This document shows, piece after piece, positions 281 to 64,000 of a DNA stretch of 64,000 bases. Numbering within the stretch: the first letter of the stretch is position 1; each line of letters starts with the position of its first letter. Location of the stretch: the NCBI GenBank assembly GCA_905178155.1, contig CAJINV010000019.1, forward strand, positions 564,475-628,474, written 5' to 3'. The position numbers and the translations under genes are program-made. The notes beneath the pieces are model-generated. The model had not been told where the DNA came from. It saw only the letters and a program-made list of their open reading frames with translations, and did no database searches. This DNA is from Amoebophrya sp. A120 (lineage: Eukaryota > Protista > Dinoflagellata).

Positions 281-3200
281 ATGTCCATGACGGAAGAAGA
301 AGGAACTCGCGAGGCGCTGCGCCTCGCCCGCATGCAGGCGATGCTGGACAAGGGAGACGCTCCGGTCCAGGCGAAATATATGCGACATCAGGGGAAAGAC
401 CAAGCAACCGAAAAGGAAGCAGCAGCCCTCTCCTCGCCCACGACGCACGAGATGAAGCCGGCAGCTGCAAATGATGGAGAACAAAAGGGACAGTCCGAGT
501 CGTGTCCTCATCGCGACACCGCTGCCACGACACCTGCCACGGTCACAGAAGCAGCAAGCCAACAAGCGGGAAATATAGTTGTGGAGTCCTCCGTTCTGGC
601 CACCGATGGTACAGAACAGACTACATCTGCAAAGCCCGACGAAGGACAGCAGCAAGAAGCGGAGCCGCCGACGAAGAAGCGCAGAAAAAACGACAAGCGG
701 GGGCAGTACAAGAATAAGGAGAGGCAGCAGATGCAGAGAGAGGAGCGGAAATTCAACAACGTGGACCGGCTGCAGACGATTTGTCTCGAGCTCGCCTTCT
801 GGAACCGGTGCGAAAGCAGCGGATGCACACTCGGAAGTAGAGCAGCGCGGTGCCATTTGTCCGCACCGGAGGTTGATCTGTCAGGAACAACAGCCGGAAG
901 CTCCTGCAAAGATGGACAGGAACAGCAAGCCGGAAAGAGCCAACCAGAAGGGGGCAGTTGTAACACGACCAAAATCTGCCGGCGCAATCACGACATTGCG
1001 AAGAAGCTTCTGGAAATCAAACAGTGTGGCGGAATGCCGTATTCTTTGCCGGAGATGGCACAAGCCGCAGCTGAGGGAGCGGTTGAGGCGGGAACAGAGC
1101 CGATAGCTTTCACTGCGAAATCCACATCTTCGGGACTGGAAATGGCCGGCGAAAAGAAAGAGGACGTCGTGGAGATGGTCAGTACTGGCAATATCCCTTG
1201 TCTCGTCTACCGCACCAACGGGTTTTGTCCCGCTGGCGTGAACTGCTTGTGGGCCGGAGACCATGTGGATCTCAACACCGGGGAAAATCTCTTTGACTGG
1301 GACAAGATTGCGGCGAAGAAGGCGGAAATGGAGTTTGGGAAGGGAAGGGGCATGACATTGACAAATAGTTCGTCTTCACCTATTGGGAAAACTTCTGATA
1401 GTACCTCAGAAACGGGTTTAATATCCGAGTCGCAAAAGCAGAAGCAGCCGGACGAGTCCAGCACTGCTTCCCCCACGACGGCGTCGACAAAAACAGAAGA
1501 TTGCTCTTCACCGGAACATCACGCAGGAGAGGAAAATGTAGTTCAACAGAACCAAGACGCCACGAATCCTGCAGTTACGGGTGTAACAAAAACTTCCCGT
1601 GATATAATTATGCCAAAAAAATGTGAAGAAAAAAGTACATCCTCCAACATAATTTTCGACAAGCAAAAGGATCTGATTTCCTTCATCCGGAATGATTTGG
1701 GGTGTCTCTCCCTCCAGTCCGGTATTCACGAAACCAACCAGCTAAATGACGACATCCGGAACCAACTTCGGCGCAAGAAAATCGCATTTCCAAAAAGCGA
1801 CGAAGTGGTGGCGAAATTCCATTTACTGAGCAAAACGATGGACGACTCGGCGCTCTCCAATGTTGAGACAAAAAATTCATCAGAAACTGCGACAATAGAG
1901 GAAAAAGTTGACACGAATAATGAAAGTGGAGCAGCACCAGCAGGTGCGATTCGCGAAGGCGTACAAGGTATCATCGCAAACACAAGCGTCGACTCTACAG
2001 CAAACACCACAACCCCTACCTCTCCAACATCTCGGCTCGGCGCTGGTCTCGAGACTTCGGATCGGCTCCACGACTTGCCGCGGGAGCGCATCGAGAAAAA
2101 GAAGAAAATTTTCAACGCGAAGAAAATCCTCGCTCCACTGACGACCGTCGGCAACCTCCCCTTCCGCAGACTGTGTGTCGAGTTGGGTTGCGAGGTGACC
2201 ATGTCCGAGATGGCCTTGGCGGAATCGATATTGTATCCTGTGCAAAAGTATCGTACTCGTACGAATTGCAGGTATGCATGACAGATCTGGTTTCCTACCC
2301 AAATCTGCATTACAAATTCCAATTTTCTTCCTGATCAAATTTGTCATGCGATTTATACTAGTACGATACTTTTGCAATGCATATATTGCAGGGGAACAAC
2401 TCGGAACTCGCCATGCTCCGTCGACACCATATCAACTGTGAAAATGTAGTCTGGGTTTGGAAACTTGTGATGCAAGTCAGGGAAAAATGCGCACACTGTC
2501 ATGCACTGCAAGCATGACAAGGTTTTCCGTAGTTCAGTGTTGCGTAGTCCGCATTAGAAACTGCGTTTTTGCATGACAGGCAAGAGAAGCCCTTTGCGGC
2601 CACGCAAGACAGAGCTCAGAGTCATGCTGGACTAGCATGACAAATCCCGGAATCTTCCAGACCCAGACATTTTTGCACTTGATACACCACAGCGAGAAGC
2701 TGTTCGGAATCCAGATCACCTCCGGCTCGGCGGGGGCGATGACGAGGTGCGCGGAATTTTTGCAAAATAACACGGACTGCGACTGGATCGATATCAATGC
2801 CGCCTGTCCGTTGGATCAGCTGCACACGAAGGGCTGCGGGTCGATTTTAACGGTGAGGGAGAAAGCGTTGCGGCAGATGGTGTACGGAATGAGAACCGTT
2901 TTGCAGGATTCGAACACTTTGTTGTCGACAAAAATCCGGATAAGCCACTACGACAAGTGCGACCGGTACAACGCGCTGAAATTGTTGCCGAAATTGGCCC
3001 AGTGGGGGTCGGACGCCGCGATTCTGCACGGGAGAACCGCGAAACAGCGGTACACAAAATTGGCGAACTGGGACTACTTGAAGTCTTGTCATGCGGAATT
3101 GGGATCACAGAACTGCGAGTTGCCGTTGGTCGGCTGCGGGGACGTGCTGTCGTACGAGCAGTACGAGCGGTACTTGGAGGAAAACTACGTCGACAGCGTC

Positions 3201-3885
3201 ATGATTGGCCGGGGAGCGTTGATCAAGCCATGGGTACTATGCTCGTGGGGATTTTATCTAAGTGTGGTTTTAAGATGATGCGCTTTATTGCTTGTCGGTA
3301 GGTTGAGGTTCCCATGCTCATCTCGTCTCATCCATCTCCATTCATGTACAACCACTAAATTAATGTACGTGACGAGTGGTGTTTGTTCGTCTTCGAACAA
3401 CTTTCTGTGACGTGCACAAAATTTACGTATTCCAAAACACCAAACAGATATTCCAAGAGATAACCGAACGGCGGCACATCGACCTCCACGCGACCGAGCG
3501 GTTGGATCTTGTCAAGAAGTACTGCCAATACGGTTTGGAGCACTGGGGTTCGGACGAGCGGGGCAGGGACACGACGCGGAAATTTCTCCTGGAGTGGCTC
3601 TCCTTTTTCCACCGCTATCTCCCGGTTGGGTTGCTGGAGCGGGAGTATCAGGGAAAGATGACCATCAACATGCGGCCGCCGAAGAACTGCTTCGGCCGGG
3701 ACGATCTCGAGACGCTGTTGATGAGCGGACAGTGCGAAGACTGGGTGAAGATTTCGGAGATGTTCCTCGGGAAGTGCGGGAAGGGGTTTAGTTTCGTACC
3801 AAAGCACAAATCCGCCAGTTACGATAAAAGAGAGGGCGAAATCGGTGGTAGTGCTGCAGCTGCGCCGATCACAGCGTCGGGGTGA
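281..3885 (+). CDS. DUS3: tRNA-dihydrouridine(47) synthase, DUS3-like; interrupted by 2 introners and 1 GT-AG intron (3234-3447)
   Basis: Motifs [47 protein letters not shown] (rebuilt after removing the elements), [69 protein letters not shown]; Cys/His-rich zinc-finger-like N-terminal region. Confidence 0.93.
2234..2383. mobile_element. Introner family B (short, 150 bp)
   Basis: TATCCTGTGCAAAAGTATCGTACT...AGTACGATACTTTTGCAATGCATA; direct repeat TATTG on both sides; removal gives ESILQGNN. Confidence 0.92.
2430..2684. mobile_element. Introner family A (255 bp)
   Basis: TATCAA...GTCTGGG / CCAGACCCAGAC...TTGATA; direct repeat CACCA; removal gives [11 protein letters not shown]. Confidence 0.92.
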
Positions 3886-62708: not shown

Positions 62709-64000
62709 TAGTAGCCCCTAGCCGGGCCCCCGTAATCATACGGCAGGTCCTATCCCGAGCAAAAACATCTCCACCCCATAGTTAAGTTGGGAAATCTGCT
62801 AGACAAATCAACAAACTTTGGCTGTTCCGCATGACAAGTTTGGTGTCGTAGTGTAATCCTGTTTAGCTAGTTCAACAGCATAACACGTCTAGCCTCGTGT
62901 GCGGATTGCAGCATCACAAATTCCGAGACACGAAGAAAGCATGCTTGTCATGGGGCTCCGCATGAGAAACATTATAAAAATGCGAATTTGCATTACAACT
63001 ACGGGGTGGGGACGTTTTTACATAGGATAGGTCCAGGCCCGTCGGGTGATCGTAGGCCGTCGGATAGGGGTTCGGCGGAAAGAGACTCGGCTGCCCGAAG
63101 GGGGTCGTAGGGCCTGTGGGTGGCAGCGGGACACTCGCAGTCGGCGGCGGCGTGTTCGCGAGAGATGAAGCCTGTTTTGATTGGAAGTCGTGGTCATGTA
63201 TAGTGGAAAAATGATCATGATGCCCAAGACGTTGTTTGACGTTGTTTCTTACTTTCTACTCCCTGCCAACAAGAACTACTTCCAGAAGATCTAGGATCTT
63301 CAAAAACCTCTATCATAAAGAAACTGTACCTGCTGCTGCAGCAATGCCGCGATGTTGGGCGGGAGATAAGGATCCTGCGACAGGCTCTGGACTTGCTGTA
63401 ACATGAGCAGGTTCTGCAGCAACGGACCGGTGCTCGCGGCCGAAGTGTCTAGATTGTAGTTCAGCTCGGCTAGTAGCTGCGCCTGCGCGTGGTGGAGCTC
63501 CGGTGCTGTGGGGGTGATTTTTGTTTTCGTTGTCGAGAGTAGAGGGAGATTGAAGTCTTGAAAGATATATAAAAAAATGCAGTTTGTCATGCGCAACAGT
63601 TGTAACTTGAATTTTAATACGCGAGGATATGAAATTCAAATCGCAAACCACTATTAAACAATCAATCTATACAGTTCGTGCTGGCGTGACTGCTGTTGTC
63701 GGTCGGCACACTGTAGTAAGACTGGTCCGACCCGTACGCATTTCCGCCCTTGTACGACCCCGCCCCTCCGGCACTGCTACCCTTGATGCCCGCCAACGCA
63801 CCCAGGGGCGGAGGTGGTCCACCCGCGCCTCCACTTGCGAAGCTGTTCAGCGGATGGTAGTTTCCATTGGCGTTGCTGCCGCTCCCATGATGGTACCCGC
63901 TGACCGAGTACCCTGGGTTACTGTTCGCGTAGTAGGAAGATGCAGAGGAAGATCCCCCGGTAGCCGACTGCGCCGAGTAGTAGCTGGCCGCGGTCGGGGG
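62709..64000 (-). CDS. Partial (5'-truncated) low-complexity hypothetical protein
   Basis: Minus-strand open frames rich in S/G/Y (63720-64000) and Q/L (63330-63560); YPTAYDHPTGLD|LPYDYGG across the 62751 element; 3' end uncertain. Confidence 0.45.
62751..63029. mobile_element. Introner family C (279 bp)
   Basis: Family C TIRs; direct repeat GGTCC. Confidence 0.92.

What the first reader, a model, noticed from the sequence alone, without database searches (positions are those of the whole stretch)
2234..63029. About 46 TAT...ATA inverted-repeat elements from ~10 families act as non-GT-AG introns under one shared rule
Seen: nearly every element is NNNNN|TAT...TIR...ATA|NNNNN, with a 5-bp repeat that differs at each site. 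Removing element plus one repeat rebuilds conserved motifs (DUS3 [24 protein letters not shown] and AYHFGPKF, TatD GETGLD), so the genes look functional and the inserts must be removed precisely. Repeats such as CACCA, TTAAC, CTTTT, TTTTT and ACTTT contain no G, so no register gives GT...AG; only a few (GGTGG, GGTCG) can. Ordinary GT-AG introns occur in the same genes. Established: IR/DR-flanked non-canonical introner elements are described in Amoebophrya; to my knowledge their excision mechanism and mobiliser are unresolved. Inference: families with unrelated interiors share TAT/ATA ends and a 5-bp TSD, pointing to one transposase class and a second, structure-guided removal pathway.
Basis: partly seen in the sequence, partly recalled or inferred. 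Interest (0 to 1): 0.9.

Follow-up and report, generated by a model that had tools for sequence, protein, structure and literature searches.

The report
Hairpin transposon introns cut by ruler
Forty-six small transposons inserted in this marine parasite's DNA are a known kind of odd intron, and RNA data here show them removed at a fixed distance from their ends without the usual GT-AG signals, likely by a rewired splicing machine.

Summary
Observation confirmed: 46 elements of 145-637 bp; 42 end TAT...ATA, 40 have an exact 5-bp repeat; none appear in 12 simulated windows. They match the introner elements published for Amoebophrya (Farhat 2021: TAT start, 3-5-nt repeats, RNA-validated; Gozashti 2025: one family 'Ginger, 5-bp TSD, TA/TA termini'), so the system is known. 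What this check adds is the cut rule, which that paper left open. RNA-type contigs (one sample) skip 11 of 11 elements in one stretch and 7 more by exact length, while DNA contigs keep them. At all 3 tested sites with unequal repeats the upstream copy is kept: the cut lies 1 or 0 nt before TAT and 4 or 5 nt after ATA, with 1 nt of microhomology, even where a 6-nt repeat was available. That argues against reverse-transcriptase jumping and homology-guided deletion. In 127 further loci the repeats show no GT/AG bias and elements face both ways equally. No transposase was found. Whether a U1-less spliceosome (about 0.45) or a separate nuclease-ligase (about 0.35) does the cutting is untested.

The parts
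2234..2383 (+). Element, family B; repeat TATTG; in DUS3 gene
2430..2684 (+). Element, family A; repeat CACCA; in DUS3 gene
5218..5527 (+). Element, family F; repeat TCGCC
7096..7348 (+). Element, family A; repeat TGGGG
7400..7544 (+). Element, family B; unequal repeats GTGCG/GCGCG
9993..10629 (.). 637-bp single element just after a LigB-like gene; repeats TTTTC/TATTT, unequal at position 5
11558..11809 (+). Element, family A; repeat CGGAC
12070..12331 (+). Element, family A; repeat TTAAC
12786..13036 (+). Element, family A; repeat AAAAG
13462..13740 (+). Element, family C; right end AGA; repeat GGACG
15098..15356 (+). Element, family E; repeat TACTG
15418..15671 (+). Element, family A; repeat CCTGG
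16881..17144 (+). Element, family A; repeat CTTTT
   Evidence: RNA joint skips 269
17216..17364 (+). Element, family B; right end AAA, last 7 nt copy the upstream exon; repeat TCAAC
   Evidence: RNA joint skips 154 = element + 5
18924..19176 (+). Element, family A; repeat AGCAA
   Evidence: RNA joint skips 258
19250..19513 (+). Element, family A; repeat GGTGG (GT-AG register possible)
   Evidence: RNA joint skips 269
20027..20242 (+). Single element, left end TAC; repeat AAAAA
   Evidence: RNA joint skips 221 = element + 5
22033..22287 (+). Element, family E; repeat TTTTT
   Evidence: RNA joint skips 260 (run X5)
22426..22688 (+). Element, family A; unequal repeats GACTT/GTCCT; fixes the cut register
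   Evidence: RNA joint 22424>22693, registers 4 or 5 only (run X5, one contig)
23313..23620 (+). Element, family F; repeat GGCGA
   Evidence: RNA joint skips 313
24070..24379 (+). Element, family D; repeat CTGTT
   Evidence: RNA joint skips 315
24415..24676 (+). Element, family A; downstream repeat displaced by 3 nt; separates ruler from homology
   Evidence: RNA joint 24413>24681 skips 267, not 270 (runs X4, X5)
24977..25297 (+). Element, family D; repeat TTTGT
   Evidence: RNA joint skips 326
25760..25923 (+). Single element; repeat ATTTG
28470..28748 (+). Element, family C; repeat GACGA
30103..30426 (+). Element, family D; unequal repeats AACAT/CACAT
   Evidence: junction not seen in RNA
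30908..31222 (+). Element, C-related; repeat CGACA
31550..31808 (+). Element, family A; repeat TCGAA
31873..32124 (+). Element, family A; repeat AAGCA
   Evidence: RNA pieces restart at 32125
34008..34403 (+). Single element inside GT-AG intron 33979-34511; repeat AAGAT
   Evidence: RNA contig length fits exactly
34539..34800 (+). Element, family A; repeat GCTAC
   Evidence: RNA contig length fits exactly
34838..35116 (+). Element, family C; repeat GGGGG
   Evidence: RNA contig length fits exactly
41160..41465 (.). Element, family D, upstream of the next coding region; repeat TAACC
   Evidence: junction not among rows shown
43383..43775 (+). Single element in cation-efflux gene; repeat CAGCT
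   Evidence: DNA contig of its interior at flank depth, RNA pieces restart at 43776
44242..44397 (+). Element, family B; repeat GTGTG
   Evidence: RNA gap 89 = predicted 89
44449..44760 (+). Element, family D; repeat GTATC
   Evidence: RNA gap 89 = predicted 89
45425..45745 (+). Element, family D, opposite orientation to 44449 in the same gene; repeat TCCTG
   Evidence: RNA gap 171 = predicted 171
45877..46137 (+). Element, family E; repeat ACTTT
   Evidence: RNA gap 171 = predicted 171
46183..46461 (+). Element, family C; unequal repeats GCCTG/GCCGG; fixes the cut register
   Evidence: RNA pieces restart at 46466; registers 4 or 5 only (runs X3, X4)
47786..48064 (+). Element, family C, opposite orientation to 46183; repeat GGTCG
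48091..48401 (+). Element, family D; repeat CGGAG
48471..48749 (+). Element, family C; repeat TTGCA
49118..49370 (+). Element, family A, left end TAC, in TatD gene; repeat CGAGA
   Evidence: RNA piece restarts at 49371
51029..51302 (+). Element, family A; repeat CGAAC
58531..58535 (+). Empty site in a paralogous copy of the 51029 gene: a single CGAAC
61497..61702 (.). Single element; repeat TGTAC; host unclear
62751..63029 (.). Element, family C; repeat GGTCC; host unclear

Best explanation
These are miniature DNA transposons with TAT...ATA ends and 5-bp target duplications that are missing from RNA-type contigs but kept in DNA, removed at a fixed distance from their ends in either orientation, likely by a rewired spliceosome that reads the predicted end-to-end hairpin instead of GT-AG. 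Step 1, insertion (shown in part): a transposase acting in trans, likely of the Ginger / IS3EU integrase-like kind, puts the element at essentially random sites and duplicates 5 bp. Step 2, folding (predicted): the inverted repeats pair in the pre-mRNA whichever way the element faces. Step 3, cutting (shown at 3 of 3 informative sites): the 5' cut falls 1 or 0 nt before TAT and the 3' cut 4 or 5 nt after ATA, so element plus exactly 5 nt leave and the upstream repeat copy stays; the repeat's sequence is not used. Because the ruler equals the duplication length, every new insertion is a perfect intron. Step 4, machine (inferred): with the 1-nt/4-nt register the intron starts N-UAU, keeping the U at +2 of ordinary donors, and a TIR-binding adapter would replace U1 and AG recognition. 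Confidence in steps 1-3 about 0.8; in the spliceosome as the machine about 0.55 given those.
For: RNA: 11 of 11 elements in 16700-25420 are skipped, each by element + 5, beside 3 GT-AG introns, and no other joint is listed; 5 more fit contig gaps of 89 and 171 exactly and 2 more a 1239-nt total. Register: 22426, 24415 and 46183 allow only cuts 4 or 5, each with 1 nt of microhomology against 3-6 nt available. DNA: the interior contig of 43383 has depth 24.7 against 24.5 and 28.7 for its flanks, and contigs run unbroken over element borders. No boundary signal: of 158 stranded repeats, 7 allow GT-AG against 6.0 expected, G at position 5 41 against 45, AG at 3-4 15 against 10.8. Orientation: sense/antisense 19/22, 7/8, 8/6, 7/9 in four families, neighbour strand calls agreeing 84 of 85; 44449 and 45425 face opposite ways in one gene and both are removed. 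Hairpin: 44 of 46 close in the sense fold, 41 of 46 antisense; z -6.5 for 24415. Transposon: 291 of 308 five-bp pairs in 127 loci are TAT; empty site. Spliceosome: U1 not found in strains A25 and A120 but found in a strain with GT-AG introns; a review reports U2-type excision of TIR introns in Fritillaria.
Against: The register rests on 3 sites, from assembled contigs of one sample labelled 'RNA?'; 22426 is one contig of depth 4.6; contigs hide minor forms. Cuts 4 and 5 were not separated, and cut 5 gives a UA start with no donor likeness; the position-5 mismatch tally (7:5) is not decisive and if anything leans to cut 5. Under cut 4 only 1 of 46 ends in AG and +1 is any base, hard for a spliceosomal active site. 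No lariat, branch point or adapter was seen. Terminal TAT/ATA is not strictly needed (17216, 20027 are removed exactly) and repeats that lengthen the stem are not depleted (65 of 291 against 74 expected), so what the ruler starts from is unknown. No transposase was found; Farhat found none in A120.
Confidence: 0.45

Rival explanations
1. Same fixed-ruler removal from RNA, but by a separate non-spliceosomal pathway: a structure-specific endonuclease cuts beside the hairpin and a ligase joins the exons, as proposed for Euglena nonconventional introns.
For: No constraint at +1, -1 or -2; no orientation preference; the 3' overhang is longer than the 5' one, as in the Euglena code N3-CDG...CHG-N5-6; a review states that Euglena introns leave as full-length circles without lariats.
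Against: No enzyme identified; the invariant T at +2 under cut 4 and the missing U1 fit a changed spliceosome; the Fritillaria precedent.
Confidence: 0.35
2. The cut register is not fixed; the three sites agree by chance or reflect site-specific signals.
For: n = 3; chance about (1/3)^3 = 0.04 under six equally likely registers; two of the three start GT under cut 4; Farhat's figure legend calls splice sites variable relative to the hairpin.
Against: All 18 measured removals are element + 5, including inside an A-run (20027) and at the displaced repeat; the third site (22426) has no G-T donor; mismatched repeats are asymmetric by gene direction, 26:9, p = 0.006.
Confidence: 0.1
3. The junctions are reverse-transcriptase template switches across a hairpin between direct repeats, a known artefact (passages of PMC4176328).
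For: Hairpin plus direct repeat is the artefact's signature; all RNA evidence here and, as far as I read, in Farhat 2021 is cDNA-based.
Against: At 24415 the 6-nt repeat (skip 270) was not used, and 1-nt joints were used at 3 of 3 sites; retention would shift the frame at 33 of 46 lengths and 36 of 46 have stops in all three frames, in conserved genes.
Confidence: 0.04
4. Elements are excised from DNA in some life stage, like ciliate IESs, and the RNA is copied from excised DNA.
For: Only one DNA run was laid, it may be the source of the window, its joint table showed 15 of 721 rows, and life stages are not on record.
Against: Interior depth equals flank depth and contigs are unbroken at borders; the kept repeat copy is set by gene direction at 3 of 3 sites, and reversal of strand transfer would remove the upstream copy (inference from general DDE chemistry, recalled); no germline/soma split is known to me in this parasite.
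Confidence: 0.04

Closest known systems
Amoebophrya introner elements (Farhat et al. 2021, PMC7789003), A120 type
   Same: TAT start, seven looser bases, then at least three A (my profile is the same); 3-5-nt direct repeats, a 5-bp example in Fig. S19's legend; RNA-validated non-canonical introns beside GT-AG ones; closest named DUS3 homologue is Amoebophrya sp. A25, 71%.
   Different: Nothing suggests a different system. That paper leaves the border position unknown, gives several repeat sizes and argues against general transposase mobilisation; here the duplication is uniformly 5 bp flush with TAT, the register is fixed, and orientation is free.
Amoebophrya A120 introner families in Gozashti et al. 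2025 (PMC12130899)
   Same: Mostly classed as TIR DNA transposons; family 38 is noted 'Ginger; 5-bp TSD, TA/TA termini'.
   Different: Their automated TSD calls run from 2 to 6 bp and splice-site models differ by family in the rows I read; the present data put all families under one 5-bp rule.
Euglena nonconventional introns (PMC12501133; review PMC11282704)
   Same: MITE-like, terminal pairing, slidable repeats, coexist with GT-AG introns, 3' overhang longer than 5' overhang.
   Different: Different motif (CAG/CTG), a purine is needed at the first exon base, stems are short; unrelated lineage.
Fritillaria borealis non-canonical introns (known to me only through review PMC11282704)
   Same: TIR and TSD, transposon origin, non-GT-AG ends.
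   Different: Preferred ends AG-AC / AG-AT and a TAC target; here neither end nor target is preferred.
IS3EU/GingerRoot, Ginger2 and IS481EU transposons (passages of PMC10045372)
   Same: TA..TA termini (IS3EU/GingerRoot), TNT..AYA (IS481EU), 4-5-bp TSD (Ginger2).
   Different: IS3EU/GingerRoot usually make 6 bp, IS481EU about 4, 15 or 25 bp; no family matches both features, and no transposase was found here.

Membership tests
Amoebophrya A120-type introner elements | Terminal inverted repeat starting TAT, 7 looser nt, then 3 or more A | tested here: met
   TAT 98-99% and A 87-94% at positions 11-13 over 962 ends
Amoebophrya A120-type introner elements | 3-5-nt direct repeat at the exon/intron borders | tested here: met
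   40 of 46 exact 5 bp
Amoebophrya A120-type introner elements | Removed from transcripts at non-GT-AG borders | tested here: met
   42 of 46 cannot be canonical
Amoebophrya A120-type introner elements | Repeated in families; host is Amoebophrya | tested here: met
   best named homologue Amoebophrya sp. A25; strain not determined
MITE (non-autonomous TIR DNA transposon) | Short, non-coding, TIRs, many copies, TSD proven by an empty site | tested here: met
MITE (non-autonomous TIR DNA transposon) | Cognate autonomous element with a transposase | tested here: inconclusive
   none in 64 kb + 458 kb, none in viral contigs; whole genome not held
Ginger2 / IS3EU-GingerRoot | Integrase-like DDE transposase | not testable with these tools
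   no coding copy in hand
IS3EU/GingerRoot | TA..TA termini | tested here: met
IS3EU/GingerRoot | 6-bp TSD | tested here: not met
   5 bp: 291 TAT pairs at 5 bp, none among the six commonest triplets at 6 bp
U2-type spliceosomal intron | GT/GC...AG ends | tested here: not met
   4 of 46 possible; observed ends TT..CC, GT..AC, GT..CG under cut 4
U2-type spliceosomal intron | Lariat with branch adenosine; dependence on U2/U6 | not testable with these tools
   no raw reads of this strain
Euglena-type nonconventional intron | N3-CDG...CHG-N5-6 motif and purine at first exon base | tested here: not met
   motif is TAT/ATA; position 5 of the repeat is unbiased
Euglena-type nonconventional intron | Excised as full-length circles | not testable with these tools
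   contigs only
Ciliate-type IES | Absent from somatic DNA | tested here: not met
   kept at flank depth in the one DNA run laid; other stages untested

The most novel reading that the evidence does not exclude
Amoebophrya runs a second, non-spliceosomal mRNA splicing pathway that measures from a transposon hairpin, ignores boundary sequence and orientation, and has a ruler tuned to the transposase's 5-bp duplication, so that tens of thousands of insertions are harmless from the moment they land; it would be convergent with the Euglena pathway.
Probability: 0.35. Interest if true: 0.9.

Novelty: already known. Interest (0 to 1): 0.55.

Why it matters
The elements are published, but how they are spliced has been open since 2021 because the flanking repeats hide the true borders. 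Unequal repeats give the borders: they predict exact intron ends, which makes lariat, circle and end-chemistry tests designable, and they argue against the reverse-transcriptase artefact that such junctions invite. A ruler that matches the duplication length would explain why a parasite tolerates massive random insertion into genes, and either machine (a spliceosome blind to GT-AG or a new nuclease-ligase) would be unusual biology.

Tried and rejected
No whole genome is held and the loci's records could not be searched further, so no genome-wide transposase search. The first lay's joint table was swamped by the DNA run (15 of 721 rows shown). The length test over 24064-32125 was inconclusive: my first intron guess was off by 4 nt and 177 GT/GC-AG models fit, so 25760, 28470, 30103, 30908, 31550 and 31873 are not counted as measured. 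The motif GCAWNASA as a branch point: it ends 40-59 nt from the end in 549 of 962 ends, but in GT-AG introns it is 5 sense to 9 antisense, so not supported. A 2459-bp element (L040) carries an ORF with no Pfam or Atlas hit; not a transposase on this evidence. No TIR match in viral contigs; no Rfam family in the window. All eight A2 copies in the window are co-oriented but this did not repeat in the loci (19/22). Earlier findings: none.

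
Full report
Observation. I read the whole window. A scan with no preset terminal triplet finds 37 inverted-repeat pairs with an exact 5-bp repeat outside, 34 of them TAT...ATA; twelve Markov-3 simulations give 0-2 pairs and never TAT. 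Homology, the first scan and the RNA data bring the count to 46. Of these 40 have an exact repeat, 42 have TAT...ATA, 36 both, and 4 can be read as GT-AG or GC-AG in some register. They fall into 11-13 families plus one single. The best named homologue is from Amoebophrya sp. A25 at 71%. A paralogous gene at about 58.5 kb lacks the 51029 element and has one copy of its repeat, so the repeat is a target-site duplication.

More copies. One scan of metagenome contigs gave 127 loci (458 kb, one assembly) with the same families. 291 of 308 five-bp pairs are TAT and 144 more copies were found by homology. In the 158 of 291 that could be stranded with confidence, repeats show no bias toward canonical borders: 7 allow GT-AG against 6.0 expected; G is somewhat common at positions 1 and 4 (62 and 60 against 45), which I did not resolve from codon effects. 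With strand called from ORF length alone (143 calls, neighbours agreeing 84 of 85), four families face sense/antisense 19/22, 7/8, 8/6 and 7/9. Ends read TAT, a loosely paired stretch (44-72% at positions 4-7), then an A-tract paired at 94-98%. The motif GCAWNASA occurs at 16.8 per kb in elements, 4.2 in GT-AG introns (borders approximate), 0.85 between genes and 0.3 in exons.

RNA and DNA. Eleven runs were listed; none of the holders is on record as RNA. X3-X6 (one sample) behave as RNA: they skip GT-AG introns and leave intergenic bins empty or nearly so. X1 behaves as DNA, with even depth near 25. On 16700-25420 the RNA-type contigs give 14 joints: all 11 elements, each skipped as element plus 5, and 3 GT-AG introns. 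In the cation-efflux gene two contig gaps are 89 and 171 letters, exactly as predicted for five elements and one intron, in X3 and X4. Across 33666-35117 the missing 1239 nt equal two elements plus two GT-AG introns, one of which contains element 34008. So 18 removals are measured. In X1 the interior of 43383 has depth 24.7 beside flanks of 24.5 and 28.7, and contigs cross element borders unbroken; its joint table was mostly hidden, it may be the window's source, and contigs drop rare forms, so this excludes only common DNA excision in that sample.

The cut rule. Equal repeats hide the border; unequal ones show it. At 22426 (GACTT/GTCCT), 24415 (downstream copy displaced by 3 nt) and 46183 (GCCTG/GCCGG) only two of six registers fit: the upstream copy is kept through position 4 or 5. 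For 46183 the left side is derived from the contig gap and the restart at 46466, not from a listed joint. Each joint has 1 nt of microhomology, though 3-6 nt were on offer; at 24415 the skip is 267, not the 270 that the 6-nt repeat would give. So the cut is measured from the element's ends and the repeat is not read. Exact removal also holds for a damaged right end (17216), a TAC start inside an A-run (20027) and opposite orientations in one gene (44449, 45425). In the loci, unequal repeats are asymmetric by gene direction at positions 1-4 (G/C allele downstream 26 to 9, p = 0.006; position 5, 7 to 5), in the direction seen at the RNA-tested sites, but I could not polarise the changes, so this is a hint only.

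Mechanism. Shown: transposon anatomy, random targets, both orientations, removal from RNA-type contigs, one register at 3 of 3 sites. Predicted: an end-to-end hairpin in either orientation. Inferred: the machine. Under cut 4 the intron starts N-UAU, like the GTAT/GTAA donors of this window, and U1 is reported missing where these introns occur but present in a GT-AG strain; I therefore favour a rewired spliceosome (0.45 overall). The lack of any constraint at +1, -2 and -1 and the Euglena-like overhang asymmetry keep a nuclease-ligase close behind (0.35). Variable register (0.1), RT artefact (0.04) and DNA excision (0.04) follow. The mobiliser is likely an integrase-like DDE transposase (TA..TA ends, 5 bp), but none was found.

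What is known, and what I saw. Farhat 2021 (PMC7789003): abstract, sections on non-canonical introns, introner elements, dynamics, the matching discussion and three methods sections, further passages, and supplement passages as text; figures 3 and S19-S25 were not visible and may bear on repeat position. Gozashti 2025 (PMC12130899): passages, a supplement search that left files 13 and 14 unsearched, one part of the dataset and the family-38 rows. Euglena 2025 (PMC12501133): passages and discussion. Review PMC11282704: passages and one section, my only source for Fritillaria and for Euglena circles. PMC12005148, PMC10045372, PMC4176328: passages. GingerRoot paper: search listing only. Roy 2023: not held. 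Searches found no paper fixing the register, testing orientation or naming the splicing machine; subscription journals are mostly outside that library.

Verdict. Real and correctly described, but an already published system. The added value is a specific, testable cut rule resting on three sites from one sample. Interest 0.55.

Noticed in passing
window GT-AG introns (21 stretches, 3.3 kb, borders approximate): The element motif GCAWNASA is about five times denser in ordinary introns than between genes (14 in 3.3 kb against 13 in 15.3 kb), on both strands; old elements may decay into GT-AG introns, or the motif may mark introns of both kinds.
   Followed up: partly
L040:476-2934: A 2459-bp family-A element with a flush 5-bp repeat carries about 2.1 kb of cargo with a 5'-truncated ORF that has no Pfam or Atlas hit; it sits in what looks like a host coding frame.
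   Followed up: partly
L001-L127: Where the two repeats differ, the G/C allele lies in the downstream copy 26 to 9 at positions 1-4 (8 to 0 at position 4); unexplained, since the mutation spectrum is symmetric.
   Followed up: partly
window 17358-17364: The last 7 nt of this element's right end are replaced by a copy of the exon sequence before the left end, giving a 12-bp repeat; it is still removed exactly.
   Followed up: yes
window about 50300-52200 and 57500-59400: Near-duplicate gene region; the second copy lacks the 51029 element (sequence).
   Followed up: partly
window 34008-34403 and 43383-43775: Two single elements with TATGGCGGG ends, 55-bp near-perfect inverted repeats and inner palindromes, with little or none of the shared motif; one lies inside a GT-AG intron.
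   Followed up: partly
window 47486-50364: After excision one frame joins an RRM domain to a TatD domain.
   Followed up: no
window 36400-38100: A GC-rich stretch (62-64%) with no element and little RNA-type cover.
   Followed up: no
window 51271-51302: The few reads of raw RNA run X9 that fit lie on element ends and run on into other sequence, so that run's organism seems to carry the family at other sites.
   Followed up: no
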